From assembly GCA_002427165.1 (NCBI GenBank), contig DIQB01000129.1:1-53041 (forward strand): DNA of 53,041 bases, read 5' to 3'. Origin of the DNA: Firmicutes bacterium UBA5473. Lineage in GTDB: Bacteria > Bacillota > DTU084. This document shows, piece by piece, positions 30,256-52,306 of the stretch. A program made the position numbers and the translations under genes. The notes under the pieces were generated by a model. The model was not told where the DNA came from. It searched no databases and saw nothing but the letters and a program-made list of their open reading frames with translations. Position 1 is the first letter of the stretch. Each line of letters begins with the position of its first letter.

Positions 30256-30906
30256 TGCTCCAAAGCGCGTAGAGACTGTTATTATAAGGGATTTCGAATG
30301 CTGACTCTAGGCTGGTCTGACGGACATAGTTTTATTCCAGTTGATTTTGCGCTGCTTAGTTCGATTAAATCCCAATTAAACGGTATGGTAGCTAAAATTG
30401 ATAAAAGAACCTCTGGTTATAAAAGACGCGTAGAGTCCCTGCTTCCTGCTCCTACACTTGTTCCCGATATGGTCGATCGCGCTTTGTCAGCTGGAATTAG
30501 AGCTTTATATGTACTAAAGGATAGCTGGTTTACTCATGCGCCGCTAATAAGAGCTATTAAACAAAAAGGGCTAGATGTCATTGGCATGGTGAAAGCTGAC
30601 AACAAACGTTATCATGGTGGAGAAAACCGATTATCTTTAAACGAGCTATATTTTGCTGCTACAAGGGTTCAGGAAAAGAATAAGAACATAATCCGTTCCA
30701 TTCGGACTCAACTTTCGCCAGGAATTCCTGTACATATTGTTTTTGTCCGTCATCGCACAAATAAAAAGGACTGGGTAGCAATCCTATTAACTGATTTAAT
30801 CTTAACCGTAGAAGAAATAATCAGATCTATAGCATTCGTTGGGATAAAATACCGATATCGGCATTTTGTCCCTTATGCTGATATTCCAGTTATGCCGACA
30901 TTTTAA
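30256..30906 (+). pseudogene. IS4-like DDE transposase fragment, missing its N-terminus and broken at its C-terminus
   Basis: YKGFRMLTLGWSDGHSFIPVDFALLSS...YVLKDSWFTHAPLIRAIKQKGLDVIGMVK...TVEEIIR. The expected IY..RWD continues only after a frameshift near 30830, and homology stops near 30850. Confidence 0.6.
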
Positions 30907-31041
30907 TGAAGTTCCAATGTCTGCGTTCCATACGTATTAAATATCGGCATTTTCTGTTATGATGAGAAAAATCATAACAGGAGGTGCCACTATGGAACGA
31001 ACAATTTAAAATGTTATTGACGGCCTGATTCTGCAGATTAA

Positions 31042-31242
31042 AGAGTACGGGGCCACCTTGCCGAGTGGCTGGGGCACAGCAGACTTGAAACGACTAGAAT
31101 TAACGCATCAGCTACGACAGAAAGGAAGCGCAAAGCAGCCGAAAAGTTGGCACTCGATGAGAAATCCGTCTTCAAGAATGATGTGCCGTTTAAGTATGCT
31201 GATAATGATGAAATGTTGAAACGTCTTTGTGGACTGAAATAA
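31042..31242 (+). pseudogene. Possible C-terminal remnant of a tyrosine recombinase/integrase
   Basis: A start-less 66-codon open frame reads RVRGHLAEWLGHSRLETTRINAS..., resembling the LGHS..ETT..Y tail of phage-type integrases with Tyr replaced by Asn. It lies opposite the 100-aa track ORF at 31038-31340. Confidence 0.3.
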
Positions 31243-31465
31243 TTATCCCGATAAATATCAAGGGCATTGTGAAAAGGAGTGTTTCCGTAGCTGCCCATCG
31301 TAAAACCTGTTCGCCACTTTGCAAGTAAACATCTTACCAAGGCCTTCGTGAATACTTGCAGCTCCTAGTCTTCGTGCTATGTACGCTATGTCTTTGAGCT
31401 TTGATTCCAAGGCCCTATTGGAAAAGGTTATGGTCGCTTACCCCAAATTTTAAAGATCACGTTAT

Positions 31466-31491
31466 GAGGGCGCCTCTATCTTAGCGCCCTC
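31466..31491 (-). terminator. 8-bp GC-rich hairpin just downstream of the minus-strand esterase gene
   Basis: GAGGGCGC-ctctatctta-GCGCCCTC, 40 nt after the stop at 31531. The T-run is not adjacent. Confidence 0.3.
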
Positions 31492-31530
31492 GCTATTCCC
31501 GAATCTTTGTACCGCAAACACTTTGATAAG

Positions 31531-32307
31531 CTACTCCCTATTTATAAAACCTAATGATCCCAACCATTTACCACATAACTCTGTCCAGCTTGCCTCAAGC
31601 CCTTCTCCCAAACCTAAACCATGTCTTCCCTCAGGATAGATATGAAGAGCAAAAGGAACCTTCTTTTCCCGCAGCGCCCGTGCAAACAGAAGACTATTTT
31701 CCACAGGCACCGCCTCGTCATCTGCAGTATGCCAGATGAAACAGGGCGGTGTCTCTTTTGTTACCGAGTTTTCTAAAGATAACCTTTCCCTAAGATCCTC
31801 TGAAGGCTCCCCACCCAAAAGATTCACCATAGACCCTCGGTGCCCGTAAGGCCCAAAAGAGATCACAGGATAGCACAAAATCATAGCATCAGGCCGGGAA
31901 GAACACCTTTCAATAGGATCTTTTGCCGTGGAATCACCTGAGGTGAAAAACGTACCAGCCGAGGCCGCCAAGTGCCCACCTGCAGAAAAACCTAAAATCG
32001 CAATTTTATCAGGAAGAATATTAAACTCCGAAGCCTTCGCGCGCACAAGCTGAACCGCCCGCTGCGCATCTTCCAAAGGTGCCGGATGTTGCGCTAGTCT
32101 GTAGTGAAGCACGAAGGCAGAATAACCCAAACTATTTGCCCAGCGGGCAATAGGCTCACCTTCATGGGGCGCTAAATGCTCATAAGCTCCACCAGGGCAG
32201 ACGATTACCGCACCTCGTGGCTCCTCTGATTCTACTAAATACGGAATCAAGATCCCGGATTGCGTATTTTGGTTACTTACATTCAATTCAATTGGAGTTT
32301 GTCTCAC
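31531..32307 (-). CDS. Alpha/beta hydrolase (acetyl-esterase/BD-FAE-like) protein
   Basis: VIVCPGGAY (oxyanion HGG-like region), GFSAGGHLA nucleophile elbow, and C-terminal EGRHGLGL. Confidence 0.8.
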   Translation of the reverse strand: MRQTPIELNVSNQNTQSGILIPYLVESEEPRGAVIVCPGGAYEHLAPHEGEPIARWANSLGYSAFVLHYRLAQHPAPLEDAQRAVQLVRAKASEFNILPDKIAILGFSAGGHLAASAGTFFTSGDSTAKDPIERCSSRPDAMILCYPVISFGPYGHRGSMVNLLGGEPSEDLRERLSLENSVTKETPPCFIWHTADDEAVPVENSLLFARALREKKVPFALHIYPEGRHGLGLGEGLEASWTELCGKWLGSLGFINRE

Positions 32308-32499
32308 CGAAAAAGACCCCTCTCAAGATTGTTTAATACAATAATTCTTCAAAGGGTGGCTGCTTCCTGCTAATTGATTTTCACTTTGCAGGGTTTGTAG
32401 GGGCGAATAGAGAAATATAGAAGATACCAGGTTCTACCATTGTCAAAATCGGAGTGGGGGTGTGAGTAAAAATAATCACCACAAAAGAGGGGGAAAATT

Positions 32500-33489
32500 A
32501 TGATAATGGACGAAGAAATTTGGCGTGCGTACTTAGATTCACTCACAGAAAAAGAACTACGTAGCTTTGCCCGAAAGTTGGGCTTCAGGATCGATGGTTT
32601 TCGTAAAGATCACCAAAAAACACCCAGACCCGTCCTCATCAGTCACTTTGGAAAACATCCTGGTGTTGCAGCAATCATGCCAAGTTTGTTGTGGCTAAGG
32701 AAGAAAATGGAGGAGGAAACGGAAAATGAGGTTGAGGCAATTGAGGAACAACAGCAAGAACTCTTTGCAGAATACGGGGCAGTACCAATAATCGCAGCCT
32801 TAGCCTCAACTGAAGAAGATGAGCTTGTGGAGTTAGGAGAACTATGGTTCGACGCTTGGCTAGAGGAGAGCGAACAGCAAAAAGAAGAGGCAAAGGATCA
32901 AAAGGAGGAGAGCAAACTGGAAAGCCAAATTGTTGACCTCCAGGCTCAGATGAAGCAGCTTGAAAAGAAACTCAAGCGAGCGGAAAGAGATGAAAAGGAC
33001 TGGAAAAGCAAATATGAAACTTTAAAAACTAAAAACGAAAAAGATCGAGAACGTTGGAAGAAAAAAACAAACAGCTACGATGAGAAACTCGCGAAAAAAG
33101 AGGAGGAAGTCGCCCTATGGATAGAAAAATGCACACAACTGGAAGGTCAACTTGCGAAAATGGAGACAGAAAAAGCGAAACTGGAGCACGAATTAAATCA
33201 AAGCTGCCTCGAGATCCTAGTCGTAGGGACCCAGGAGCGACCAGGGGAGAGGAAACGCATCGGATCTGAACTTGTGAACCTGAGCTATATCGACAGCAAC
33301 AAACAAAATGGCCTCTCAGAGCTAGTTTTAGATAAAGATTACATCCTCCTTCAATCTGCAAGGCTATCGAATCCTTTGCGAGCTAACCTTTACACCTGGT
33401 GCCTGCGGGCAGGAAAACAGCCCCTGGAATTCTCAGGTGAAGAAGAACTAATGAAAAAACTAGAACGTGTTTTGGGGGCAGAAAAATGA
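32500..33489 (+). CDS. Highly charged coiled-coil protein of unknown function; first gene of the McrBC-like module
   Basis: AGAGGGGG RBS. A central segment of about 110 aa is E/K/Q-rich and heptad-like (KLESQIVDLQAQMKQLEKKLKRAERDEKDWKSKYETLKTKNEK...). The stop overlaps the next start (ATGA). Confidence 0.75.
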   Translation: MIMDEEIWRAYLDSLTEKELRSFARKLGFRIDGFRKDHQKTPRPVLISHFGKHPGVAAIMPSLLWLRKKMEEETENEVEAIEEQQQELFAEYGAVPIIAALASTEEDELVELGELWFDAWLEESEQQKEEAKDQKEESKLESQIVDLQAQMKQLEKKLKRAERDEKDWKSKYETLKTKNEKDRERWKKKTNSYDEKLAKKEEEVALWIEKCTQLEGQLAKMETEKAKLEHELNQSCLEILVVGTQERPGERKRIGSELVNLSYIDSNKQNGLSELVLDKDYILLQSARLSNPLRANLYTWCLRAGKQPLEFSGEEELMKKLERVLGAEK

Positions 33490-35324
33490 CAAAAAGATGG
33501 GAATGCTTATTGGCCGGCAGACTGGCCCGAAAAGAAGAGATGTCCTATGGCCAGGAGCCGATTTTTGTAAATAATAATGACGCACTGCAGTTCTCAATTA
33601 AAGTGCAAAGCATCGGGCCTGAGGATTGCCCCACAGACGAACTATACTCTTGCTGGTGCAATAAAGTAGAGCAGTTTGGTTTCCATGATGATTCCCGAGA
33701 ATTTGAGGTTTTGCGGTTGGACAAATTGACTAAATTTCTTGAAGATAAGATCATCCTCTTCAAGCCCAGCATGAATCACGGTGGAGAGGGGAGAATCTTC
33801 TACACTGCAGAACCAAAAAGCCTCCTTCCCCGACCTGACGGAATCACTGGGGACACAAAATTGGTACCACTGCTCCTGGCTCGAGAGCAGGGAGAGGAGC
33901 TGGCAGAAGCATTAGCACTGGGAAGAGCTCTTGGTCGCTTTGAAAGCTACCCCAGAGAGATGCCCCAGCCTGTGGCAGTTGTGGATAGCACGCTTTCCGT
34001 TGCCTATGGCCCTGTGGCAGGCCTCGCCATCCGGCGAGATGAAATATCCGCCATTATCCAAGAACCCCCAAGATATGTTCCCTTGGAGGAAAAATTCTCA
34101 GACTCCTTTCTCTTCTACGAAAACCTGATCTTGGTAGACGAGGGAATAGCTAAAACTTTAGAGGAGGAACTAGCCGGGGGCCAGACTGTTACCATCCAAC
34201 CTCCTCAGGTGCAGCAAACAACAGGACATACATCCCCTGTGGAAATTAAATTCCTTGAGGATTTTCAAGCCCTCACCCGGGCAGAAGGGTTCTTGTATAG
34301 CAAAGAGGACATGGAAAACCTTCACCTCTCTTTTAAATGTGGGAGCCTGGTGCTCCTCGCTGGCATGACTGGCATCGGCAAAAGTCAGCTGGTGCGGCTT
34401 TATAGCAAAATGCTAGGTCTTAAGGAGAGATTTCTCATGCTCCCTGTAAGCCCAACCTGGCACGAAGACTCAGATCTCATTGGCTACCTGGATACTTTGA
34501 ACATGATCTATAGGCCTAGCACGGAACTTGTGGATCTTTTGCTTGCGGCCCAACTGAACCCAGATGAACTATATCTAGTCTGCTTCGATGAGATGAACCT
34601 AGCCCGACCAGAGCACTATTTTGCCCAGTTTCTCAGCGTCCTTGAATCACCGCAAAAAGAGCGCTACCTTACCCTCTACAACCCAAAGCTCCAAGAGAGG
34701 GTCTATAACTCGAACCTTTACCCCCCGCGGGTGAAAATTGGCAGCAACGTACTCTTTGCCGGCACAATTAACGTTGATGAATCAACCTATGCCTTCAGCG
34801 ATAAACTCCTAGATCGGGCCAATGTAATCAGGCTCAAACTGGACTCGTTTTCAGAGCTGGCAAGATTGGGAGCAGAGGAGCCACCCAGACTCTACCCTAT
34901 CTCCTTTGCAACCTACAGCGCCTGGCGGCACTATAATTGCCAAGGCCTGGCCCTCACCGACAACGAGCTGGCCTTTTTCGAGGAGCTCCAGGCAGAATTT
35001 GAGAAAGTGGATTTAGAGCGGGGCTTTGGCTATCGGGTCTTGCGACAAATAGACTGCTACGTGGGGAACCTCCCAGGGAGCGAAGGTTGGCTTACCAGGG
35101 GCGAGGCCATAGACCTGCAGGTGAGCCAGCGGATTCTCACCAAACTCAGAGGACCCAAAGAGCAATGGGAGAACCTGGTGGGCAGGATCAGAGGCGAAGA
35201 ATTGGAAGCAAGTTCCCTGGAGGAGGTTTTTAATAAATACCCCATGGTCAGTGACTTCTCTCGCTCCCGCATCGGTCTTAGACGCAAGGCAAAGGAGCTA
35301 GGCTGGTATGGGTATGCGTCGTAA
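33486..35324 (+). CDS. McrB-like AAA+ (AAA_5) GTPase with an unassigned N-terminal region of about 280 aa
   Basis: Walker A GMTGIGKS. Walker B LVCFDEMNLARPEHYFAQFLSVLE. TINVDEST..LLDRANVI parallels McrB MNTADRS..RRF. Confidence 0.8.
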   Translation: MTKRWECLLAGRLARKEEMSYGQEPIFVNNNDALQFSIKVQSIGPEDCPTDELYSCWCNKVEQFGFHDDSREFEVLRLDKLTKFLEDKIILFKPSMNHGGEGRIFYTAEPKSLLPRPDGITGDTKLVPLLLAREQGEELAEALALGRALGRFESYPREMPQPVAVVDSTLSVAYGPVAGLAIRRDEISAIIQEPPRYVPLEEKFSDSFLFYENLILVDEGIAKTLEEELAGGQTVTIQPPQVQQTTGHTSPVEIKFLEDFQALTRAEGFLYSKEDMENLHLSFKCGSLVLLAGMTGIGKSQLVRLYSKMLGLKERFLMLPVSPTWHEDSDLIGYLDTLNMIYRPSTELVDLLLAAQLNPDELYLVCFDEMNLARPEHYFAQFLSVLESPQKERYLTLYNPKLQERVYNSNLYPPRVKIGSNVLFAGTINVDESTYAFSDKLLDRANVIRLKLDSFSELARLGAEEPPRLYPISFATYSAWRHYNCQGLALTDNELAFFEELQAEFEKVDLERGFGYRVLRQIDCYVGNLPGSEGWLTRGEAIDLQVSQRILTKLRGPKEQWENLVGRIRGEELEASSLEEVFNKYPMVSDFSRSRIGLRRKAKELGWYGYAS

Positions 35325-36930
35325 TGATCTCCCCTTTGAGCTCCGCTTCTACCTCTACCGCAATGTGGAGGCTAGTCGCGACTGTTTTTTAACCATCATG
35401 GATGACTTTGTGGAAGAACCAAGTGAGGTGGATTCCAGCTACGTCCAAATGCGGGAGTTCGCCCAGGTAGAGGTGGAGCTGGTGGCCAAAGAACCTGGTC
35501 CCTGGCGTCTGTATCTGGCAGGCCTTGAGCGCAGCGATAGCCGCTATGTAGAAAGCGATGGTAAAGAGTCGTGGTTACCTCACGGCGCGCGCATTACCCT
35601 CAGCAGTCCCACAGAGGAGCCCTGGATCCCAGGCTACTACGATGTACAGGTCCGCTGTGGGGACAGGATCTATTATAACCTGCTCTACGTCTGTCCCAAA
35701 GGCATGACCACCCACCAGTTAGATCTCATGCGCCAGGAGATTGAGGATCTAGCTGCAGGCCTGGCCATGGACGTGGCAGGAGGAAGAGCTGGGGGGCTTT
35801 CTCCGGAGGCCCACTATCGCTACAGGCTTCTGTGGGACAACTTCCCCCAACTCTGCGCTGCAGTAACGGATATCCTGGAGCGTCCCTCCCAGCAGGTTAC
35901 TCGCAACTGGCAGGTTGTCCCCTCCAGTTGCGCCCGGAGGATCGACAGGCAAAGCATCACCTGGCTTAGCAAACACCCCCAGACCTTTGCAGGGGGCAAA
36001 CCCCAGCGCATCCTCTGGGGTAAAGGCACGGTCCTGTATGATCTGCCAGAAAACGTCTGGCTAGCTGGCGTCCTAGATCAGATCATCACCCTTTTAGGAG
36101 AGATCGCTCTGGCCGGGGAGGGAGAGCAGGCAAAGCGGGCCCTACATATGCAGGAACGGCTGCGGATCCTGCGGCAGCGGCCCCCTTTAGCAGAGCTTAT
36201 AGGAGGGAGCGTCAGTTGGTCCTTGGCCATGTTCAAGGACGGCAGATACAGGCTCCTCTACGAGCTCTGGCGGCAGCTGTTTAAGCCCCTATCTGTGTAT
36301 TTCCGCGGCGAGCTAGGCTGGAAACGCACAGATAAGCTCTTCGAATACTGGTGCTTTCTGCGCACCATCGTTGCCCTCGAGGAGTTAGGTTTCAGTCCCA
36401 CCGGCGGTACTTTGCTTGCAGGGCAGCTAGAAAAAGAGGGAGTGGTGGTTTCTCTCAGTGCAGGCACCAAAGTGGAGCTCAGCCGCGGAGAACGCTCCGT
36501 TGTGGTTACGTATGATGAGGTATTGCCCCATACTCTAGAGGAGGTTAGGGCTCGGGACCATTTTCTAATGGTGATCTCCCCCCATGATAAGCCAGACATT
36601 CGTTTAGATTTCTATGAAAACGGAGCGTATCAATATACCTCGATCATGGATGCTAAATACCGCCATCCCCTTTGGATCTGGGACCGGAGGGTTTTTGCTG
36701 GAGGGATAAAATGGCCCCAGGCTATGAACCAGATCTCCAACTATAAAAATTCCGTCTATAACATTAATCAATCAGATCTGCGTTGCGTCCGGGAGGCTGC
36801 TTTGATTTGCCCGCCTGTAGATGAACCACAGGTGGACTACGCCTCAGACTATCACCTAGCGCTTGTGATGGAGGCGCCAGGTGATGGCAAGGTGCTGCGG
36901 GAGTATTTGGAAAGCAAAGTAATTGCCTAG
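35308..36930 (+). CDS. McrC-like DUF2357/DUF524 (COG1700-type) PD-(D/E)xK nuclease
   Basis: LFEYWCFLRTIVALEELGF followed by KPDIRLDF...TSIMDAKYR (D-x17-D-x-K). A 17-nt overlap with the GTPase gene. Confidence 0.75.
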   Translation: MGMRRNDLPFELRFYLYRNVEASRDCFLTIMDDFVEEPSEVDSSYVQMREFAQVEVELVAKEPGPWRLYLAGLERSDSRYVESDGKESWLPHGARITLSSPTEEPWIPGYYDVQVRCGDRIYYNLLYVCPKGMTTHQLDLMRQEIEDLAAGLAMDVAGGRAGGLSPEAHYRYRLLWDNFPQLCAAVTDILERPSQQVTRNWQVVPSSCARRIDRQSITWLSKHPQTFAGGKPQRILWGKGTVLYDLPENVWLAGVLDQIITLLGEIALAGEGEQAKRALHMQERLRILRQRPPLAELIGGSVSWSLAMFKDGRYRLLYELWRQLFKPLSVYFRGELGWKRTDKLFEYWCFLRTIVALEELGFSPTGGTLLAGQLEKEGVVVSLSAGTKVELSRGERSVVVTYDEVLPHTLEEVRARDHFLMVISPHDKPDIRLDFYENGAYQYTSIMDAKYRHPLWIWDRRVFAGGIKWPQAMNQISNYKNSVYNINQSDLRCVREAALICPPVDEPQVDYASDYHLALVMEAPGDGKVLREYLESKVIA

Positions 36931-37646
36931 GAAAACCAGCAGAGCACAATCCCGGCTAAAGTTCCCACGGCAAAGGCAACTGTGGCAAGATACTCGTGGC
37001 TAAGCTCGTGGGCATCTGGGAGCATTTTCTCCACCACAATGCACAGCATAGCACCGCCTGCAAAGCCCAAAGAGCCTGAGAGGAGGCCCCCAGAGAGCCG
37101 CCCTACAAGGGCGCCGATGAGGGTCCCACCTGCCATGGGGAGGCCCGTGAGGATGGTGGCCAAAAGCACCTTGCCTCGCCTGACATTTGCCAGACGCATA
37201 GGGACGCCTATGGCCACCCCCTCTGGGATGTTGTGCACAGTCATCACAAAAGCCACGCCAAAGCCTAGGCTGGCTGCAGCAGAAAAGCCTGCTCCCACAG
37301 CCATCCCTTCAGCAAAGTCGTGCATAGCGACTCCCAGAGCTAAAAGGAGGCTAGTGGCCAGATGCTTGTTTTGTAAAAACTTTAGCTTGCGTAGAAAAGA
37401 GTCCAGAGCCAAGATTAGCACAAAGCCCAGGAGCATCCCTCCTAATCCCCACAGGAGGCCCCCAATATCGAAGGCAGCCGTGAGGAGATCGAAGGCAACC
37501 ACAGCAAACATCAGTCCCCCGGAAAAACCCAAGAGCCAACCTAAAATATTTTTACTCTGGTGGATAGTGATGGAAATGAGCCCACCCAGCCCTGTGCCCA
37601 CAATACCGCTGAGGAGTCCGATGGTGGTTGTAAAAAGTAAATTCAA
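36927..37646 (-). CDS. zupT: ZIP-family divalent metal (zinc) transporter
   Basis: Polytopic membrane protein with the ZIP signature HNIPEGVAIG and HDFAEGMAVG. Confidence 0.8.
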   Translation of the reverse strand: MNLLFTTTIGLLSGIVGTGLGGLISITIHQSKNILGWLLGFSGGLMFAVVAFDLLTAAFDIGGLLWGLGGMLLGFVLILALDSFLRKLKFLQNKHLATSLLLALGVAMHDFAEGMAVGAGFSAAASLGFGVAFVMTVHNIPEGVAIGVPMRLANVRRGKVLLATILTGLPMAGGTLIGALVGRLSGGLLSGSLGFAGGAMLCIVVEKMLPDAHELSHEYLATVAFAVGTLAGIVLCWFS

Positions 37647-37663
37647 TTGCCTACCTCCTGCGC

Positions 37664-37692
37664 TTTACGAAAGCCCTCTTAATATGCTAGAA
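37664..37692 (+). promoter_or_regulatory. Candidate sigma-70-type promoter for the paaK-ACT (and possibly downstream) genes
   Basis: TTACGA, then 17 nt ending in TGC, then TAGAAT (extended -10). It lies about 65 nt upstream of the ATG at 37755. Confidence 0.4.
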
Positions 37693-37754
37693 TATGGCTA
37701 TAGTATTATCAATTTATGATCGATGTGGATTATTTATGATTTGGCCAGGAGGGA

Positions 37755-39083
37755 ATGGAATTGGCAAAGAGAAGAGTTGAGAATCTCATCTGGAACAGAG
37801 CACGGGAGTGCATGGACCGAGAGGAGAAACAACAGCTACAGTTGGAGAAGCTACAGGAGACAGTAAGGCGGGTGTATCAGAAGGTACCCCATTACCGCAA
37901 TGCCTTGCAAGAGCGGGGGATTGGCCCCGATGATATCCGCTCTTTGGCAGATCTAACCCACCTGCCCTTTACAGCAAAACAAGATTTGCGGGATAACTAT
38001 CCGTTTGGCATGTTTGCCGTGCCTAAAAGCGAAATCGTACGCATTCATGCCTCATCAGGTACCACAGGCAAACCCACAGTTGTGGCCTACACCAGCCGGG
38101 ATCTAAATAACTGGGCAGAACTTGTGAGCAGATCCCTGGTTTGCGCAGGTGGCACCCATGAGGATACCATCCAGATTGCTTACGGCTACGGCCTCTTTAC
38201 AGGTGGCCTGGGCATTCACTATGGAGCAGAGCGCCTCGGAGCCACAGTGGTCCCCATCTCCGGTGGCAATTCAGAGAGGCAAGTGAACCTAATGCGGGAC
38301 TTCGGCACCACGATTCTCGCTTGCACCCCCTCCTATGCCCTTCATATTGCAGAGGTAGCCCGGGAGAGCGGGATCGATATTCGCGAGCTGCCTTTGCGTG
38401 CCGGTATTTTCGGGGCAGAGCCCTGGTCTGATAACATGCGCAAGAAACTGGAAGCAGAAACAGGAATCAGCGCTGTTGATATCTATGGTCTCAGTGAGGT
38501 TGTGGGTCCAGGTGTTGCCTGCATGTGCCAAGCTAAAGAGGGGCTCCACGTCTTCGATGATCATTTTATTCCTGAAATCGTGGATCCTGTAACAGGTGAG
38601 CCCCTGCCGCCAGGGGAGGAAGGGGAGCTTGTTTTCACCTCCATCTCCAAGGAGGCCTTCCCGATTATCCGCTACAGAACTCGGGATATCAGCTCCATCA
38701 TAGAGGAACCATGTGAATGTGGTCGTACTCACACCAGGATTCAAAGAATCTGTGGACGCACAGACGACATGCTCATTATCCGGGGTGTGAATGTCTTCCC
38801 ATCCCAGATCGAAAGCGTGCTACTTGAGATCGGCGAGACCGAGCCTCACTATCAGCTAATCGTAGATCGCAGAGGACAGATGGACGCCCTTGAGGTACTA
38901 GTGGAAGTTTCCGAACAAATGTTCTCCGATAAAGTCAGAGGCCTTGAGGAGCTAGGACAGAGGATTCAGCACAAGATTGTGAGTCTACTGGGCGTCTCTT
39001 GTAAAGTGAAACTGGTGGAGCCTAAAACAATTGAACGCACCAGTGGTAAGGCTAAACGCGTCATTGACAAACGTCAATTATAA
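37755..39083 (+). CDS. paaK: Phenylacetate-CoA ligase family (PaaK-like adenylate-forming) enzyme
   Basis: [41 protein letters not shown] is a close match to the PaaK family N-terminus. C-terminal [11 protein letters not shown]. Confidence 0.85.
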
Positions 39084-39096
39084 GGAGGGAGCAAGA

Positions 39097-39528
39097 ATGC
39101 AAGTCACTCAAATCTCAGTATTTTTGCAGAACACAGCTGGCAGGCTGGCAGGAGTCACAAAAACATTGGGTGAGGCGGGGATCAATATTCGTGCCCTATC
39201 CATCGCAGACACCAGTGATTTTGGAATTTTGCGCCTGATTGTGGACAAAAGCGAGGAAGCCCTAAAGGTTCTCAAAGATCGGGGCTACGCTGTGAGCAAG
39301 ACAGAGGTGATCGCGGTCCGCGTCCCAGATAAGCCTGGGGAACTTTCTACAATTTTATCCCTTCTAGAGGGAACAGGGATCAATATTGAGTATCTTTATG
39401 CTTTTGTGGGTCGCTCTGGGGGAGATGCAGTTGTGGTTTTCCGAGTCGAGGAGCCCCAAAGAGCTCGGGTCTTGTTATCCGAGAACAACATCGAATTTCT
39501 TGATGAAGATCAGATCAATAAGTTTTAG
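39097..39528 (+). CDS. ACT domain-containing (amino-acid-binding) protein
   Basis: AAGGAGGG RBS before the ATG at 39097. Two ACT-like repeats (ISVFLQNTAGRLAGVTKTLGEAGINI; VRVPDKPGELSTILSLLEGTGINI). This is a common PaaK partner. Confidence 0.8.
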   Translation: MQVTQISVFLQNTAGRLAGVTKTLGEAGINIRALSIADTSDFGILRLIVDKSEEALKVLKDRGYAVSKTEVIAVRVPDKPGELSTILSLLEGTGINIEYLYAFVGRSGGDAVVVFRVEEPQRARVLLSENNIEFLDEDQINKF

Positions 39529-39537
39529 GAGAGAGTT

Positions 39538-40680
39538 ATGAAGATCGTAATTGCACCTGATTCTTTTAAGGGCAGCGCCTCGGCCAAACAGGTGGCCGAG
39601 GCCATAGCCTCCGGCTGGCGCCGGATTTTCCCCGGGGCCCTCTGCGAGCTTGTGCCCATGGCAGATGGCGGCGAAGGCACTATGGAGGCCTTAGTAGATG
39701 CCACAGGTGGTGTTACCAAAACCATTCGCGTCCAAGATCCTCTTGGCCGCACTATCGAGGCAAGCTTTGGGGTTTTAGGCGATGGCAAAACTGCAGTGGT
39801 TGAGATGGCTGAAGCCTCAGGCCTGCCGCTGCTCGCGCCCTCTGAGCGCAATCCCCTTCTAACTACCACCTTCGGTACAGGGCAGCTGATCCGTGCCGCC
39901 CTAGAGGAGGGTATTGAGCGGCTTTTGATTGGCCTCGGCGGCAGCGCTACAGTTGATGCAGGCGCGGGTTTGGTCAGTGCGATGGGAGCTAAACTATTAG
40001 CTAAAAATGGCCAGGAGGTTGGCCCCGGTGGCGGGAGCCTCGGGAGCCTCGCCAAAATAGAATTAGGAGAGCTACCTAAGCTACTAGGCAAGGTTGAAGT
40101 CTTGGCAGCCTGCGATGTGGACAATCCCCTCACAGGGCCACAAGGCGCAGCTGCCGTCTTCGGACCTCAGAAGGGAGCCACTCCTCAAATGGTGGCCCAG
40201 CTAAATCGGAACCTGGCCCATTGGGCACAAATCGTTGCCCGGGACTTGAGGATAGAGGTGGATCATCTCCCTGGGGCCGGCGCTGCAGGGGGCCTGGGGG
40301 CGTGTCTTGTGGCCTTTTTGGGCGCCAAGCTAGTTCCAGGGATCGAGATGGTGATGTCCTCCTCAGGCCTTGAGGAGAAGCTCAAGAACTGCGATCTGGT
40401 GATCACAGGTGAGGGCAAGTTAGATGGACAAAGCGCCAGGGGTAAAACACCTATGGGTGTGGCCCAGTTGGCAGCCAAACATAAGATTCCAGTCCTGGCC
40501 ATAGGCGGCTCAATTGCAGAAGATGCATCTCTCCTCTATAACGAGGGAATCGGCGCCATGCTCAGCATCGCGCCAGGACCAATTTCGCTAAGTGAGGCAA
40601 TCGAAGAGGGACCCAAGCTGCTGGAGGAGACAGGGGAGCGAGCAGCGAGGATTTTTGCCCTGGCAGGTTGGAAGGATTAA
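39538..40680 (+). CDS. glxK: Glycerate kinase
   Basis: MKIVIAPDSFKGSASA N-terminus, GGSATVDAG and ITGEGKLDGQS motifs of the glycerate kinase family. Confidence 0.85.
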   Translation: MKIVIAPDSFKGSASAKQVAEAIASGWRRIFPGALCELVPMADGGEGTMEALVDATGGVTKTIRVQDPLGRTIEASFGVLGDGKTAVVEMAEASGLPLLAPSERNPLLTTTFGTGQLIRAALEEGIERLLIGLGGSATVDAGAGLVSAMGAKLLAKNGQEVGPGGGSLGSLAKIELGELPKLLGKVEVLAACDVDNPLTGPQGAAAVFGPQKGATPQMVAQLNRNLAHWAQIVARDLRIEVDHLPGAGAAGGLGACLVAFLGAKLVPGIEMVMSSSGLEEKLKNCDLVITGEGKLDGQSARGKTPMGVAQLAAKHKIPVLAIGGSIAEDASLLYNEGIGAMLSIAPGPISLSEAIEEGPKLLEETGERAARIFALAGWKD

Positions 40681-40741
40681 AACTACTAGCTAAAGAATGG
40701 GGGGAGAGAAATTCTCTCCCCCTTTTGCAAGGAGGGGGAAG

Positions 40742-42280
40742 ATGGTAACCATCCAGGTGGGGAAGAAGAAGATCCAAGGGGCGAGAGGGAGTAATCTGCG
40801 CGAGACTCTTCTGGCGGCAGGCGTTCCCCTGGATTCCCCCTGCGGCGGCCGCGGCAGCTGCGGCAAGTGCAAAGTTCGAGTATTAGGAGAGGTAGACCCA
40901 CCTTCTATAGCTGAGCGGGAGCTTTTAGACTCCGGCCTCAAGCTAGGGCTGCGCCTGGCCTGTAGGGTTACAATTCGGGGCCCCCTTGCAGTAGAACTAC
41001 TCTCCTCGGCAGAGGAGAGTGCTCCTTCAGAGGAAGTTATATCACGAGATATGCAGTTGGGCGCAGCTGTGGACATCGGCACCACCACCCTTGCCGGCTA
41101 CCTTGTGGATCTTCCATCTGGCAGCGTCTTGGCCACAGCCTCAAGATTAAATCCCCAGGCAAGTTATGGCGCAGATGTGATCTCGCGCCTGGCTTATGCC
41201 CAGGAGGGAGGCAGCCAGGATCTTACAGAGGCTGTGCGCAGGGGCGTAGCCGATCTTTTGGTTGATCTGGCAGGGAGCCTGGGGCAGATCCGCAAATTGG
41301 TTTTGGTTGGCAATTCCGCTATGCACCACCTGTGGTGGGGCATAGAGACAAGCAGCCTGGCTCAGGCTCCCTACAGACCAGCGTCTACCCAGCCCATTTC
41401 AGAGCCTGCCTCCACTTTAGGCCTTTCTCTCCACCCAGAAGCCCAGGTATATTTTTTGCCCCTTGTGGCAGGGTTTGTGGGAGCTGATACTGTGGCAGCA
41501 CTTCTTGCCACAGGGCTTGATGAGGGGCACGCCAGAAGGCTGCTTGTTGATATCGGCACCAATGGAGAAATGGTGCTGGCTGCAAATGGCAAGCTCCTTA
41601 CCTGCGCTGCAGCTGCAGGGCCGGCTCTGGAGGGGGCTGAGATTAGCTGCGGTATGCGGGGGATTCAAGGCGCGATTGAGGCAGTGAATCTTGATGATGG
41701 TATAAATTATAAAGTGATCGGAGATGTGGAGCCTTTGGGCATCTGCGGCTCGGGGCTTGTGGATCTGCTCTCAGAGCTCTTGCGCGTTGGTGCTGTGGAT
41801 CATACAGGACGGCTTTTGGGCCAAGCTGAGTTTTTGGCCCAAGGTGGGGCGGCTAAGCTAGCTTCCAACTTGCTTGAGGATGGCTTTCAAGTAGCGGTTG
41901 GGCCCCAGGGGCCAATTGTGCTTACAGGCCGGGATGTGCGCAAGCTTCAGCTTGCCAAAGGGGCAATTAGAGCAGGCTGTGAGATCTTGCTCTCTGCGGG
42001 GGGCATTGCATACCAAGAGCTAGATGAGATTATTCTCGCCGGTGCTTTTGGCAGTTACCTCAGCCCCAAAAGCGCCCTCAGGGTAGGGCTGTTGCCTCCA
42101 GTCGAACTCGAAAGGATCAAAAGCGCAGGGAATGCTGCAGGTGAGGGAGGAAAACTCGTGCTTGTGGGCGACCAGCAGAAGAAGCGGGCAGAGGAAATAG
42201 CGAGAAAGCTTGAGTATATAGAGCTTGCAGGTAGAGGAGATTTTCAAGAGCGCTTCATGGAAGGGATGCTGTTTGACTGA
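40742..42280 (+). CDS. 2Fe-2S ferredoxin domain fused to an ASKHA/DUF4445 ATPase (RACo-like corrinoid activation protein family)
   Basis: CGGRGSCGKCKV cluster motif. AVDIGTTT and LVDIGTNGE phosphate-binding motifs. GGAGGGGG RBS before the ATG at 40742. Confidence 0.75.
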   Translation: MVTIQVGKKKIQGARGSNLRETLLAAGVPLDSPCGGRGSCGKCKVRVLGEVDPPSIAERELLDSGLKLGLRLACRVTIRGPLAVELLSSAEESAPSEEVISRDMQLGAAVDIGTTTLAGYLVDLPSGSVLATASRLNPQASYGADVISRLAYAQEGGSQDLTEAVRRGVADLLVDLAGSLGQIRKLVLVGNSAMHHLWWGIETSSLAQAPYRPASTQPISEPASTLGLSLHPEAQVYFLPLVAGFVGADTVAALLATGLDEGHARRLLVDIGTNGEMVLAANGKLLTCAAAAGPALEGAEISCGMRGIQGAIEAVNLDDGINYKVIGDVEPLGICGSGLVDLLSELLRVGAVDHTGRLLGQAEFLAQGGAAKLASNLLEDGFQVAVGPQGPIVLTGRDVRKLQLAKGAIRAGCEILLSAGGIAYQELDEIILAGAFGSYLSPKSALRVGLLPPVELERIKSAGNAAGEGGKLVLVGDQQKKRAEEIARKLEYIELAGRGDFQERFMEGMLFD

Positions 42281-42319
42281 TAAGATTCGCTCTTTGGATT
42301 TTTAAGGGAGGAAGTTATA

Positions 42320-43198
42320 ATGCGAAAGAAGCTTTTATTCTTTCTGCTGATGCCGTTGTTATTTATAGGTTGTAGCAAACCTGGAAAAAACATACCTCAG
42401 CCTCAGGGTAGTTTTCCCCTAACAATTACCGATGCCTTCGAGGAAGAAGTTACAATTGAGAAACCACCAGTGAGGATTATCTCTTTGGCCCCCAGCCATA
42501 CCGAGATTCTTTTTCAGCTGGGTTTGGAGGACAAGATTGTAGGTGTAACCAACTGGTGCAATTGGCCCGGGGAGGCCCAAAAGAAAACTCTGGTGGGAGA
42601 TATTAATCTTAACTTCGAAAAAATTGTCTCCCTCAAGCCGGATCTCATCGTGGGTATCCGCAGCATGCAGGAGGAGAACCTCAAACGTCTGGCCCAAATG
42701 GGATACAAAGTACTTAGCCTGGAGCCCGCAGGGATCGAGGGCACAATTAAAACTATCGAAACCCTGGGCCTGGTAACAGACCGCAGGGCAGAGGCTGGAA
42801 GGCTTATCGCGAAAATAAAAGAGCAGCTAGCTAGCATCAAACCCAAAACCACAAGGCCCAAAGTGCTGATGGTTTTAGATTTAGATCCCCTCTATACAGT
42901 GGGACCGGGTAGCTTGCAAGACGAACTATTAGTTCGCGCAGGTGGCGAAAACATCGCAGCTGAAACAAACACTCCTTGGCCGCAGCTTTCAGATGAGATT
43001 ATAATTGCCCAAGATCCCGATGTAATTTTGGTGACAGCGGATTTCCAGGAACGTATTTTGAATAAGGCTGCCTGGCGAAATCTCAAAGCAGTTAAAAAGG
43101 GGGCCATCTATTCTGTAGATCCGGATTTAATCTCAAGGCCTGGCCCCAGAATTGGTGAGGCTGCAGTGGAGATCGCCCAGGTGCTTGGAGAAAAGTAG
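42320..43198 (+). CDS. Cluster-A ABC substrate-binding lipoprotein (BtuF/FhuD-like, cobalamin or iron-chelate)
   Basis: Lipobox LLFIGCSK. RIISLAPSHTEILFQLGLEDKIVGV is typical of BtuF-like binding proteins. Confidence 0.75.
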   Translation: MRKKLLFFLLMPLLFIGCSKPGKNIPQPQGSFPLTITDAFEEEVTIEKPPVRIISLAPSHTEILFQLGLEDKIVGVTNWCNWPGEAQKKTLVGDINLNFEKIVSLKPDLIVGIRSMQEENLKRLAQMGYKVLSLEPAGIEGTIKTIETLGLVTDRRAEAGRLIAKIKEQLASIKPKTTRPKVLMVLDLDPLYTVGPGSLQDELLVRAGGENIAAETNTPWPQLSDEIIIAQDPDVILVTADFQERILNKAAWRNLKAVKKGAIYSVDPDLISRPGPRIGEAAVEIAQVLGEK

Positions 43199-43209
43199 GA
43201 GGGACGCAA

Positions 43210-44247
43210 TTGCAGGGGAAAGACCTGAGCTCTCAAGTTCGCGCCCAGCGCCATAGGTGGAGGCTTGTTAGCTTCTGCCTTTTTCTAGCGCTGGTGCTGG
43301 TGGTTATCCTGGCGCTATCCGTGGGAGCTGTGAAACTTAGCCCCGGGGACGTCTTGGGAGTATTCGCAAACAAACTCTTCGGATCCAAAGCGCCACCTGA
43401 GACTGCCCGGATCATAGTCTGGCAGCTACGCCTGCCCAGAATCCTTATGGCAGCCGCAGTTGGTGCAGCCCTATCTAGCTCTGGCGTGGCCCTCCAGGGC
43501 CTTTTTCGCAATTCGCTAGTAGACCCATATATCCTCGGCCTCTCCTCTGGTGCAGCTTTAGGCGCAGCTTTAGGGTTTAGCCTAAAGCTTTCCGGGTTTA
43601 TTCCCTTCTTTGCTTTTTTAGGCGCTCTTCTGGCGACCAGCATCGCTTATCTATTAGCTCAGGAACACGGGCGGGTGCCTCCCATGCGGCTCCTCCTCTC
43701 CGGCGTTGCCACCAGCGCTTTTCTTTCAGCGTTGGTCTCTATGCTAATGCTCAGGAGCCAGCAGAGCATGCAAACAATTTTTTTGTGGCTGATGGGTAGC
43801 TTTTCCGGTCGCAGCTGGCCTGAACTCGTGCTGGTCTTCCCCTACATGTTAGTTGGGCTCCTTCTGATCTTTTTCCATCTGCGGGAGCTCAACCTGCTAC
43901 TCTTGGGTGAGGAGGCAGCAAGCCAATTAGGGATGGAAGTGGAGCGAGCCAAACGCTTTCTGCTTCTGGGCGCCACCTTGGCTGCGGCAGCAAGCGTGGC
44001 CGGCAGCGGCACCATCGGCTTTGTGGGCCTTGTGGTGCCGCACCTGGTGCGGCTCGTCACAGGCTCTGACCACAGGCTCCTCTTTCCCCTCTCATTCCTT
44101 GTGGGGGCCTTATTTATGGTGCTAGCCGACACTTTAGCCCGCACCATAATGGCACCTGTAGAGCTGCCTGTTGGTATCATCACATCTTTAATTGGTGCTC
44201 CCTTCTTTCTCTATCTCCTCAAGAGAGGAGGGCGGAGATGGCAGTAG
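43210..44247 (+). CDS. FecCD/BtuC-family ABC permease
   Basis: RLPRILMAAAVGAALSSSGVALQGLFRNSLVDPYILGLSSGA and C-terminal GIITSLIGAPFFLYLL. Confidence 0.85.
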   Translation: MQGKDLSSQVRAQRHRWRLVSFCLFLALVLVVILALSVGAVKLSPGDVLGVFANKLFGSKAPPETARIIVWQLRLPRILMAAAVGAALSSSGVALQGLFRNSLVDPYILGLSSGAALGAALGFSLKLSGFIPFFAFLGALLATSIAYLLAQEHGRVPPMRLLLSGVATSAFLSALVSMLMLRSQQSMQTIFLWLMGSFSGRSWPELVLVFPYMLVGLLLIFFHLRELNLLLLGEEAASQLGMEVERAKRFLLLGATLAAAASVAGSGTIGFVGLVVPHLVRLVTGSDHRLLFPLSFLVGALFMVLADTLARTIMAPVELPVGIITSLIGAPFFLYLLKRGGRRWQ

Positions 44248-45491: not shown

Positions 45492-45506
45492 AAGGCTCCC
45501 TGTTTT
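45481..45506 (+). terminator. Rho-independent terminator of the ABC operon
   Basis: CAGGGAGC-tgaaag-GCTCCCTG followed by TTTT. The stop codon lies in the loop. A second hairpin with a T-run follows at about 45530-45568. Confidence 0.7.
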
Positions 45507-45671
45507 AACTATTAGATTATTTGGCAAAGGCTCAGTTAGCTTCTCCGGTAACTGGGCCTTTTCTTGAAAGGCAGTTTACAAAAGAAATTCAAGAGAACAA
45601 AAAATAATCCAAAGGTCCTCAGCTGGAGAATAGGGAATTATAGATAGAAGTAGTTTTTTAGGAGGGAACCG

Positions 45672-46859: not shown

Positions 46860-47352
46860 GCTTTATTTGTTATAACATTGGGCAGCGTAATAGAACTAGC
46901 TCAAAAGCCTGCCAAATAGTACCATTTAGATTTTAAGCAGTGAGTACATTATCAAAATGAGAAATTAATAGCATGTCTTGCTATGGCAGAACAGGAAGAG
47001 AGATGAAACAAAATCCTAGGTCAATAGATATAGAGCAGATAAGGAAAGGTGCTTCTACGATCCCTTTGGGTCTTATGTTTGTGAGAAACAAAGATGTGGT
47101 TCAAGCAAGTATATAAGCATACCTATTTTCAGGGATAACTCAAACTATAAGGGCGTTGACAGGTCTCGATTCTGTTAATGCCTTTTTTATTGCTGGCGTT
47201 TCCCAATTGTTGCGAACTTGACTTAAAGGGGGCCAAGGAGGTAGTGGACAATATTTGGCGAATTTCTCAAAGGAAAGGTTCCAAACCTTGCTTGGTTTTT
47301 TATAAGCTATGAAATAAAGAACACCTTAGATACAACCTGGAGGGTGAGATTA

Positions 47353-48711: not shown

Positions 48712-48867
48712 GCACCTTTGATGTTAAGATAAATATATGTTTTTGTTAAAACAGTTAACCAATAAAACCATTTTAAAAGGAATAGAAAGATATTCCAAAG
48801 GTTTTCCCACATGAAAAGGAGAATTTTTTAATTGTGGTAACTATAAAGTTAAAAAAGAGGGTTGCCA

Positions 48868-50469: not shown

Positions 50470-50499
50470 GAAACCCCTCAAATGTAATAAATACCGGGA

Positions 50500-51441: not shown

Positions 51442-51453
51442 GTGGGGAATGAG

Positions 51454-52287: not shown

Positions 52288-52306
52288 AAGAGAGGAGAGG
52301 GTATTG

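What the first reader, a model, noticed from the sequence alone, without database searches (positions are those of the whole stretch)
32500..36930. Translationally coupled module of a coiled-coil protein, a McrB-like GTPase and a McrC-like nuclease: candidate non-canonical type IV restriction / antiphage system
Three + strand genes overlap stop-to-start (ATGA at 33486-33489; 17-nt overlap at 35308-35324). They sit between a divergent esterase gene and a convergent ZIP transporter gene, so they look like a self-contained operon.

Gene 2 carries Walker A GMTGIGKS (34362-34385) and Walker B LVCFDEMN (34575-34598), followed by LARPEHYFAQFLSVLE. It also has TINVDEST...LLDRANVI, which parallels the MNTADRS...RRF segment of E. 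coli McrB. Gene 3 has the FEYWCF helix and a KPD-x17-MDAKY PD-(D/E)xK core (about 36589-36660), typical of McrC/COG1700 nucleases.

Three things are unusual:
- The first gene is a 329-aa highly charged coiled-coil protein with no equivalent in classical McrBC.
- The roughly 280-aa N-terminal target-reader region of the GTPase matches no reader domain I can recognise.
- No methyltransferase, helicase or second nuclease is nearby.

Coiled-coil-associated McrBC derivatives have been catalogued by comparative genomics (CoCoNuT-type systems). I cannot tell from sequence alone whether this three-gene layout is one of those classes or a new one.
Basis: partly seen in the sequence, partly recalled or inferred. 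Interest (0 to 1): 0.85.

Follow-up and report, generated by a model that had tools for sequence, protein, structure and literature searches.

The report
Type I-B CoCoNuT (CnuA-CnuB-CnuC) operon
The three overlapping genes are a divergent copy of a three-gene McrBC-like system already catalogued in 2024 as "Type I-B CoCoNuT". The finding is real, but the architecture has a name and nobody has yet tested what it does.

Summary

All three "unusual" features are the defining features of Type I-B CoCoNuT (Bell et al. 2024, eLife, PMC11090510):
- a separate coiled-coil protein, CnuA;
- a McrB-like GTPase, CnuB, with the shortened NxD signature (here N429-V-D431-E432, invariant across the family) and a beta-rich reader instead of a fused coiled coil;
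- a DUF2357 + PD-(D/E)xK McrC homologue, CnuC.

Gene 1 has only a handful of close relatives. A profile of the ORFs directly upstream of CnuB homologues in other Bacillota still matches it end to end (hhalign 99.6 %, E 4e-24). Of 46 loci with a gene-2-like reader, 41 carry such an upstream ORF, and natural CnuA-CnuB fusions exist.

This copy is a deep, divergent branch. CnuA is shorter, the family's H-x-Y-A-H-G-G-F motif in the second reader domain is missing, and the operon sits at a fixed site among housekeeping genes in two related Clostridia lineages.

Verdict: new member of a known, experimentally uncharacterised kind. Interest is moderate to low.

The parts
32500..33489 (+). Gene 1 = CnuA-like coiled-coil protein (329 aa). 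Helical N-domain at about aa 1-105 (nt 32500-32814), carrying the family motif EEIW...G-F-R-K. One long helix at aa 106-235 (nt 32815-33204). Small alpha/beta C-domain at aa 237-324 (nt 33208-33471).
   Evidence: ORF. AF2 model: helices 5-101; helix 106-235 with pLDDT about 95; beta-alpha domain 237-324. A profile of 32 upstream ORFs from other Bacillota hits residues 1-238 at E 1e-29. hhalign gives 99.6 %, E 4e-24, over 319 columns including the C-domain. A Shine-Dalgarno-like GAGGGGG lies 7 nt upstream of the start codon.
33486..33489 (+). ATGA stop/start overlap between gene 1 and gene 2 (translational coupling inferred).
   Evidence: In the other loci the upstream ORF also abuts or overlaps the GTPase gene.
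33486..35324 (+). Gene 2 = CnuB, a McrB-like AAA+ GTPase (612 aa). First beta-rich, OB-like domain at about aa 1-118 (nt 33486-33839). Second beta-rich domain at about aa 120-235 (nt 33843-34190). GTPase region at aa 250-612 (nt 34233-35321).
   Evidence: Pfam AAA_5 and PADLOC PDC-M26A at 1.1e-40. More than 361 homologues, many named 'McrB family protein'. The family profile's best PDB hits are E. coli McrB 6HZ4, 6UT6 and 7VSR. AF2 model of residues 1-262: pLDDT 90.8, no long helix.
34362..34385 (+). Walker A, GMTGIGKS (G293-S300).
   Evidence: G293, G296, G298 and K299 are invariant in 43 sequences.
34575..34598 (+). Walker B, LVCFDEMN (L364-N371).
   Evidence: F367, D368, E369, M370 and N371 are invariant.
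34770..34781 (+). NxD(E) signature N429-V430-D431-E432. This is the shortened form of the McrB NxxD motif.
   Evidence: Translation. N429 and D431 are invariant and E432 is at least 90 % conserved. The paper defines the NxD clade.
35308..35324 (+). 17-nt overlap between gene 2 and gene 3, with AAGGAG at 35292-35297.
   Evidence: The same 17-nt overlap occurs in L001, L010, L011 and many other loci.
35308..36930 (+). Gene 3 = CnuC, a McrC homologue (540 aa). Extra N-terminal domain at aa 1-113 (nt 35308-35646). DUF2357 at aa 114-282 (nt 35647-36153). PD-(D/E)xK domain at aa 343-453 (nt 36334-36666).
   Evidence: Pfam DUF2357 (8.6e-8) and PDDEXK_7 (2.2e-8), both above their curated cut-offs. 21 of 23 family members carry both domains.
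36595..36657 (+). Nuclease catalytic core: P429-D430 ... D448-A-K450.
   Evidence: P429, D430, D434, K450 and Y451 are invariant. D448 is conserved in at least 70 % of 72 homologues.
32308..32499 (.). 192-bp divergent intergenic region between the esterase gene and gene 1. It presumably holds the operon promoter.
   Evidence: Position only. The consensus scan found no convincing sigma-70 site here, so the promoter is inferred, not shown.

Best explanation
Identity. This is a divergent, vertically inherited Type I-B CoCoNuT operon, cnuA-cnuB-cnuC.

Shown here:
- CnuB is a McrB-family AAA+ NTPase of the NxD clade. In front of the ATPase core it carries two beta-rich domains, the first OB-like, and no coiled coil.
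- CnuC is a DUF2357 + PD-(D/E)xK McrC homologue with an intact catalytic D...D-x-K.
- CnuA is a helical N-domain, a coiled-coil helix of about 130 residues, and a small alpha/beta domain. It is homologous to the protein encoded directly upstream of CnuB in other Bacillota.

Inferred by analogy with E. coli McrBC (Niu et al. 2020, as summarised in PMC11090510):
- CnuB forms a hexameric ring.
- CnuC inserts into the ring and stimulates GTP hydrolysis.
- The N-terminal reader domains bind a nucleic acid. The OB-like fold, and the arguments of Bell et al., favour RNA or single-stranded DNA.
- The CnuC nuclease then cuts it.

Inferred for CnuA: it dimerises through its coiled coil and bridges or regulates CnuBC assemblies. 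It would supply in trans what the coiled coil fused to CnuB supplies in Types I-A and I-C. The natural CnuA-CnuB fusions argue that the two proteins touch.

Biological role. Antiviral restriction or abortive infection is the likeliest role, but it is inferred and has not been shown for any CoCoNuT.
For: - Family profiles.
- The NxD(E) signature is invariant.
- The definition of Type I-B in PMC11090510 matches gene order and domain order. It reads: separate CnuA = helical domain + coiled coil + REC-like; CnuB without a fused coiled coil and with an N-terminal OB; CnuC = Ig-like + DUF2357 + PD-DxK; mainly Bacillota.
- The paper's domain boundaries match gene 1. It gives the N-domain as residues 1-142 and the REC-like domain as residues 266-352. 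Gene 1 has 1-105 and 237-329.
- Gene 1 versus the upstream-ORF family: hmmsearch 1e-29; hhalign 99.6 %, E 4e-24, end to end.
- Co-occurrence: 41 of 46 loci with a gene-2-like reader have an abutting upstream ORF of 290-420 aa. Two of the five exceptions are cut by a contig end, and two are CnuA-CnuB fusions.
- Fusions: L041, L042, L083, P0151.
- Models: reader pLDDT 90.8, with repeated weak OB-fold matches to SSB, PriB, RPA and Rim1; CnuA architecture.
- Catalytic residues are conserved.
- The operon is intact and syntenic in a sister species. Amino-acid identities are 49.5 %, 74 % and 65 % for the three genes.
Against: - No YTH/EVE hit appeared, and the family's H-x-Y-A-H-G-G-F motif is absent in this clade.
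- The CnuA end domains were not recovered as CARD/pyrin or REC. The best Foldseek matches were G-alpha/Ras-type alpha/beta domains at E about 5e-3. There is no Response_reg hit.
- I could not check accessions against the paper's Type I-B list, because the held copy of the sheet is truncated.
- My neighbour-joining tree is crude. It puts this clade on a deep branch next to Desulfosporosinus and Dialister-type loci, not inside the main Bacilli group.
- The operon sits among housekeeping genes, not in a defence island.
- No CoCoNuT has experimental support in the library searched.
Confidence: 0.78

Rival explanations
1. It is a DNA-targeting Type IV restriction enzyme of the classical kind. The reader domains would recognise modified double-stranded phage DNA. 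CnuBC would translocate and cut DNA as E. coli McrBC does. CnuA would be only an accessory scaffold.
For: The PD-(D/E)xK core is intact. The profile's best PDB hit is E. coli McrB. Bell et al. allow that many CoCoNuTs also target DNA through McrC.
Against: The NxxD signature is shortened to NxD. No known DNA-reader domain was detected. The only fold signal is OB-like, which is typical of single-stranded nucleic-acid binders.
Confidence: 0.2
2. It is a domesticated derivative that no longer serves defence. It would act in an RNA-surveillance or stress response of the host, as Bell et al. proposed for Pseudo-Type I-B.
For: The site is the same in two species that have diverged to about 70 % nucleotide identity, lying between esterase, ZIP transporter, PaaK-like ligase, ACT and glycerate kinase genes. 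No other defence gene lies nearby. The putative ligand motif of the second reader domain is remodelled.
Against: CnuA is kept, whereas Pseudo-Type I-B lost it. CnuA evolves much faster than its neighbours: 49.5 % against 65-83 % amino-acid identity, dN 0.38 against 0.11-0.26. That pattern is common in conflict genes. All catalytic motifs are intact.
Confidence: 0.15
3. It is a new three-gene McrBC derivative that only resembles Type I-B and belongs to no described CoCoNuT subtype.
For: Only about 35-40 % identity to mainstream family members. A deep position in the crude tree. No YTH-like signal. PADLOC models miss genes 1 and 3.
Against: All three proteins align end to end with the mainstream family. 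Gene order, overlaps and the NxD(E) signature are identical.
Confidence: 0.05

Closest known systems
Type I-B CoCoNuT (CnuA-CnuB-CnuC; Bell, Sahakyan, Makarova, Wolf, Koonin 2024, eLife 13:RP94800)
   Same: - Three genes in the same order with overlapping reading frames.
- A separate CnuA built as helical domain + coiled coil + alpha/beta domain.
- A CnuB with the NxD(E) GTPase signature, N-terminal beta-rich reader domains and no fused coiled coil.
- A CnuC with an extra N-terminal domain, DUF2357 and an intact PD-(D/E)xK core.
- A Bacillota host.
   Different: - A deep, divergent branch at about 35-40 % identity for CnuB and 15-22 % for CnuA.
- CnuA is shorter: 329 aa against 350-390 aa.
- The second reader domain lacks the family's H-x-Y-A-H-G-G-F motif and gave no YTH/EVE structural hit.
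- The chromosomal site is stable and lies among housekeeping genes.
E. coli K-12 McrBC (classical Type IV restriction)
   Same: An AAA+ GTPase with Walker A/B and a sensor-1 Asn signature. A partner with a PD-(D/E)xK nuclease, encoded immediately downstream.
   Different: NxD instead of NxxD. No McrB-N DNA-reader domain. An extra N-terminal domain in the McrC homologue. A third, coiled-coil gene. No adjacent Type I R-M system.
Type I-C / I-A CoCoNuT, and the CnuA-CnuB fusion proteins found here (L041, L042, L083, P0151)
   Same: The same GTPase and McrC families, and the same coiled-coil element.
   Different: In those systems the coiled coil is part of the CnuB polypeptide. Here it is a separate protein.
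PADLOC candidate system PDC-M26 (model PDC-M26A)
   Same: Gene 2 matches PDC-M26A at 1.1e-40 over the GTPase core.
   Different: Only the core aligns: residues 261-405 of gene 2 to positions 307-448 of the 724-position model. Gene 3 matches no PADLOC model and gene 1 gives only coiled-coil noise. No description of PDC-M26 was found in the paper library.

Membership tests
Type I-B CoCoNuT | McrB-like AAA+ GTPase with Walker A and Walker B | tested here: met
   AAA_5 above its cut-off. Walker residues are invariant. E. coli McrB is the best PDB hit of the family profile.
Type I-B CoCoNuT | NxD signature, usually followed by E or D, instead of NxxD | tested here: met
   N429-V-D431-E432. N429 and D431 are invariant and E432 is at least 90 % conserved in 43 sequences. 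Definition.
Type I-B CoCoNuT | No coiled coil fused to CnuB | tested here: met
   The AF2 model of residues 1-262 (pLDDT 90.8) shows beta-rich domains and short helices only.
Type I-B CoCoNuT | Separate coiled-coil protein CnuA encoded next to CnuB | tested here: met
   Gene 1 has a helix at 106-235 with pLDDT about 95. It is homologous to the upstream ORFs of 32 other loci. 41 of 46 loci carry such an ORF.
Type I-B CoCoNuT | CnuA N-terminal pyrin/CARD-like helical domain | tested here: inconclusive
Type I-B CoCoNuT | CnuA C-terminal REC-like domain | tested here: inconclusive
   An alpha/beta domain at 237-324 aligns with the family C-domain. Foldseek recovers only generic Ras/G-alpha-type alpha/beta folds. 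There is no Response_reg hit. The strand YILLQS is not followed by an Asp, read directly from the sequence.
Type I-B CoCoNuT | CSD-like OB fold at the N-terminus of CnuB | tested here: inconclusive
   Repeated OB-fold hits (SSB, PriB, RPA, Rim1) with probability up to 0.82 and target TM-score 0.4-0.5, but the best E-value is 0.035.
Type I-B CoCoNuT | YTH-like domain between the OB fold and the GTPase (the paper says 'often', so it is not obligatory) | tested here: inconclusive
   The second beta-rich domain is present and collinear with the family. It lacks the H-x-Y-A-H-G-G-F motif, and no YTH/EVE structure appeared among the 50 listed matches of 376 with E up to 10.
Type I-B CoCoNuT | CnuC with DUF2357 and an active-looking PD-(D/E)xK | tested here: met
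Type I-B CoCoNuT | Ig-like beta-sandwich at the N-terminus of CnuC | not tested
   About 113 residues precede DUF2357 and contain conserved positions E50, Y69, G72, P108, G109 and Y111.
Type I-B CoCoNuT | GTPase domain falls in the Type I-B clade of the published tree | tested here: inconclusive
   A crude neighbour-joining tree of 79 GTPase domains groups the window with L008 and L030, both of which have CnuA and a gene-2-like reader. The branch is deep, beside the Desulfosporosinus and Dialister groups. The published accession list is truncated in the held copy.
Type I-B CoCoNuT | Mainly found in Bacillota | tested here: met
   The closest genome is 'Clostridia bacterium DTU084'. All 80 related loci come from Bacillota-type genomes.
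Classical McrBC (E. coli type) | NxxD GTPase signature | tested here: not met
   The signature here is N-V-D.
Classical McrBC (E. coli type) | Two-gene system with a known modified-DNA reader on McrB | tested here: not met
   The operon has three genes. No Pfam or NCBIfam reader domain was detected.
PADLOC PDC-M26 | All component models matched | tested here: inconclusive
   Only model A matches, and only to gene 2. Gene 3 has no PADLOC hit. The system's definition was not available.

The most novel reading that the evidence does not exclude
This Clostridia clade may be a remodelled Type I-B lineage. Its members are the window, L001/L007 and P0007-P0010, with the second reader domain resembling that of P0011-P0017, P0027 and L008. 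The pocket of the second reader domain has been rebuilt, with loss of H-x-Y-A-H-G-G-F. The operon has become a fixed chromosomal resident.

On this reading it recognises a different ligand from mainstream CoCoNuTs. It would act either as a new specificity class or as a host RNA-surveillance or stress module rather than as mobile anti-phage cargo.
Probability: 0.15. Interest if true: 0.55.

Novelty: new member of a known kind. Interest (0 to 1): 0.3.

Why it matters
No CoCoNuT of any type has been characterised experimentally in the literature I could search. A compact, self-contained three-gene Type I-B operon with all catalytic motifs intact is a practical candidate for the first biochemical test. 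The questions to test are whether these systems target RNA or DNA, what the NxD variant does to GTPase control, and what CnuA contributes.

Two by-products may help design such experiments: the natural CnuA-CnuB fusions, and a 1708-aa protein made only of tandem reader modules (P0139).

As a discovery, the finding adds one divergent member to a catalogued subtype.

Tried and rejected
- Single-sequence searches of genes 2 and 3 against PDB gave only noise.
- The gene 3 family profile against PDB gave no McrC hit.
- NCBIfam gave nothing specific for any gene.
- A profile search for CnuA in the 5.8-billion-protein database returned only 11 proteins, because coiled-coil words saturated the pre-filter.
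- Foldseek of CnuA gave only generic matches of a long helix plus an alpha/beta domain.
- The paper's Type I-B accession sheet is truncated in both held versions, so a direct accession check failed.
- No paper mentions PDC-M26.
- The promoter/terminator scan found no more sites than shuffled sequence.
- dN/dS against the sister species is unusable for the three genes because dS is saturated.
- I considered and rejected the idea that gene 1's similarity to the upstream ORFs is only coiled-coil bias. The N-domain alone (residues 1-115) hits the N-termini of 11 upstream ORFs besides the L007 orthologue, most of them collinearly. hhalign also extends through the C-domain.
Full report
**1. Observation**

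- One search lists + strand ORFs at 32500-33489 (329 aa), 33486-35324 (612 aa) and 35308-36930 (540 aa).
- The gene 1/gene 2 junction reads ATGA at 33486-33489.
- Gene 3 starts at ATG 35308, 17 nt before the gene 2 stop at TAA 35322-35324. AAGGAG lies 10 nt upstream of that start.
- Walker A (GMTGIGKS, residues 293-300), Walker B (LVCFDEMN, 364-371), TINVDEST (427-434) and KPD...MDAKYR (428-452 of gene 3) are all present. Their key residues are invariant across homologues.
- The flanking genes are a divergent BD-FAE/Abhydrolase_3 esterase and a convergent ZIP transporter.
- None of the 30 other large ORFs of the window scanned against Pfam is a methyltransferase, helicase or further nuclease.

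**2. What the three proteins are**

Gene 2:
- It passes the Pfam AAA_5 cut-off and matches the PADLOC candidate model PDC-M26A at 1.1e-40.
- It has more than 361 homologues. Many are full-length at about 35 % identity in Paenibacillus, Ectobacillus, Alicyclobacillus, Brevibacillus, Sporosarcina and Staphylococcus, and NCBI names them "McrB family protein".
- A profile of 43 family members finds E. coli McrB (6HZ4, 6UT6, 7VSR) as its best solved relatives.

Gene 3:
- It carries DUF2357 and PDDEXK_7, both above their cut-offs, as do 21 of 23 family members.
- P429, D430, D434, K450 and Y451 are invariant, and D448 is conserved in at least 70 % of 72 homologues. The nuclease looks active.

Gene 1:
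- It has no family hit beyond coiled-coil noise.
- It has only five relatives among 5.8 billion proteins by direct search.

**3. The named system it matches**

Bell et al. 2024 (PMC11090510) surveyed about 34,000 McrBC systems. They defined a branch in which the GTPase signature NxxD is shortened to NxD, usually followed by E or D.

Within that branch, Type I-B CoCoNuT is defined as follows:
- a separate coiled-coil protein, CnuA, built as a pyrin/CARD-like helical domain, a coiled coil and a REC-like domain;
- a CnuB with an OB fold (CSD) and often a YTH-like domain in front of the GTPase, with no fused coiled coil;
- a CnuC built as an Ig-like domain, DUF2357 and PD-(D/E)xK;
- a distribution mainly in Bacillota.

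Gene 2 reads N429-V-D431-E432, and N429 and D431 are invariant.

**4. Is gene 1 really CnuA?**

I fetched 80 genomic loci that encode gene 2 relatives and tabulated their neighbours.
- Of 46 loci whose GTPase carries a gene-2-like N-terminal region, 41 have an ORF of 290-420 aa abutting it upstream.
- Of the five exceptions, two are cut by the contig end and two are fusion proteins.
- Nearly all loci have the McrC homologue downstream, often with the same 17-nt overlap.
- A profile of 32 of these upstream ORFs hits gene 1 at 1e-29 over residues 1-238. It picks up a shared N-terminal motif, M-x-EEIW...G-F-R-K.
- The N-domain alone (residues 1-115) hits the N-termini of 11 upstream ORFs besides the L007 orthologue, most of them collinearly, so the signal is not coiled-coil bias.
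- Profile-profile comparison aligns the two families end to end, C-terminal domain included: 99.6 % probability, E 4e-24, 319 columns.
- The AF2 model of gene 1 shows a helical N-domain (5-101), one helix from 106 to 235 (pLDDT about 95) and a beta-alpha domain (237-324). The paper gives domain boundaries of 1-142 and 266-352, which fit.
- In L041, the CnuA N-domain plus coiled coil is fused directly to the GTPase. In L042, L083 and P0151 it is fused in front of a full CnuB. These are Rosetta-stone evidence that CnuA and CnuB act together.

**5.

- The AF2 model of residues 1-262 is confident (pLDDT 90.8, pTM 0.82). It shows two beta-rich domains, at about 1-118 and 120-235, followed by a linker.
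- Foldseek against PDB and BFVD found nothing below E 1e-3. The recurring weak matches are OB-fold single-strand binders (SSB, PriB, RPA, Rim1, LEF-3), with probability up to 0.82 and target TM-score 0.4-0.5.
- No YTH/EVE structure appeared.
- The motif H-x-Y-A-H-G-G-F, conserved in mainstream family members, is replaced in this clade.
The module is essentially private to CnuB.

**6. Context and evolution**

- The closest genome is the MAG "Clostridia bacterium DTU084" (L007). It is the same species as L001-L006.
- The block from esterase to glycerate kinase (window 31546-40683) is syntenic with that species at about 70 % nucleotide identity.
- Amino-acid identities across the block:

| Gene | aa identity (%) |
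|---|---|
| esterase | 68 |
| gene 1 | 49.5 |
| gene 2 | 74 |
| gene 3 | 65 |
| ZIP | 82 |
| PaaK-like | 83 |
| glycerate kinase | 77 |

- The operon has therefore been inherited vertically at a fixed site, and CnuA is its fastest-evolving part.
- This differs from the defence-island setting that is typical of such systems.
- A crude neighbour-joining tree of GTPase domains puts the window with L008 and L030, both with Type I-B architecture. The branch is deep and lies near the Desulfosporosinus and Dialister groups.

**7. Mechanism**

Shown here: the domain composition, the conserved catalytic and NTPase motifs, the co-conservation of the three genes, and the fusions.

Inferred from E. coli McrBC, as summarised in PMC11090510:
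- a CnuB hexamer;
- CnuC insertion into the ring, stimulating GTP hydrolysis;
- cleavage by the CnuC PD-(D/E)xK site.

Inferred from the OB-like fold and the arguments of Bell et al.: the ligand is RNA or single-stranded DNA.

Inferred from the fusions and from Types I-A and I-C, where the coiled coil is part of CnuB: CnuA is a dimeric adaptor or regulator of CnuBC.

An antiviral or abortive-infection role is the likeliest reading. No experimental study of any CoCoNuT turned up.

**8. Verdict**

- Domain-level calls for CARD-like, REC-like, OB and YTH-like folds remain inconclusive with the tools at hand. The Ig-like domain of CnuC was not tested.
- Novelty: new member of a known, catalogued but uncharacterised kind.
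- Interest: 0.3. The value lies in its use as a compact test case and in the remodelled second reader domain, not in a new architecture.

Noticed in passing
P0139 (from; sequence): A 1708-aa protein in which the search scored nine matched stretches of the CnuB N-terminal reader module and which lacks the family's GTPase motifs. It could be a decoy, an anti-defence protein or a sensor array. Its genomic context could not be looked up.
   Followed up: partly
L041:5089-7176; L042:2-2629; L083:5182-7794; P0151: Natural CnuA-CnuB fusions. In Savagea (L042), Metalysinibacillus (L083) and P0151 they precede a full CnuB, giving proteins of 870-906 aa.
   Followed up: partly
window 1-31000 and 46000-53041, versus 31000-46000: The block holding the operon is about 52 % GC, like the sister species throughout. 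Both flanks are 35-46 % GC (mostly about 40 %). They encode carbohydrate-utilisation loci: GH2, GH123, CBMs, GH130, ABC sugar transporters, LacI and a YesM/YesN-like two-component pair. They look horizontally acquired, or less likely reflect a chimeric assembly.
   Followed up: partly
window 30298-30906: A truncated DDE_5 transposase ORF (202 aa; it matches profile positions 115-220 of 272) sits at the GC and synteny break upstream of the esterase gene.
   Followed up: partly
L001:1-5999, also L003 and L004: In the sister species a 2152-aa protein with fused DEAD and UvrD helicase domains lies about 1 kb beyond the esterase gene on the opposite strand. It is absent from the window. In L004 it is interrupted by IS200/IS605-type genes (Y1_Tnp and OrfB_IS605/TnpB-like).
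   Followed up: no
window 36927-36930: The stop codons of gene 3 (+) and the ZIP transporter gene (-) overlap by 4 nt. There is no intergenic space for a terminator between the convergent genes.
   Followed up: no
window 32500-33489 versus L001:8001-8984: CnuA diverges far faster than its neighbours: 49.5 % amino-acid identity and dN 0.38, against 65-83 % and dN 0.11-0.26 for adjacent genes.
   Followed up: yes
P0005 (ENA contig): In one metagenome contig the C-terminal part of a gene 1 orthologue is fused in frame to the start of a gene 2 orthologue. This is probably an indel or assembly error at the ATGA junction.
   Followed up: no
window 36982-37719 (+): A 245-aa ORF lies antisense to the ZIP transporter gene. 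It is Pro/Arg-rich and looks like a shadow ORF rather than a gene.
   Followed up: no
window 40697-45491: Downstream of the syntenic block lie a RACo-type corrinoid activator and a periplasmic-binding/FecCD/ABC transporter set. The sister species has a URO-D gene at this position instead.
   Followed up: no
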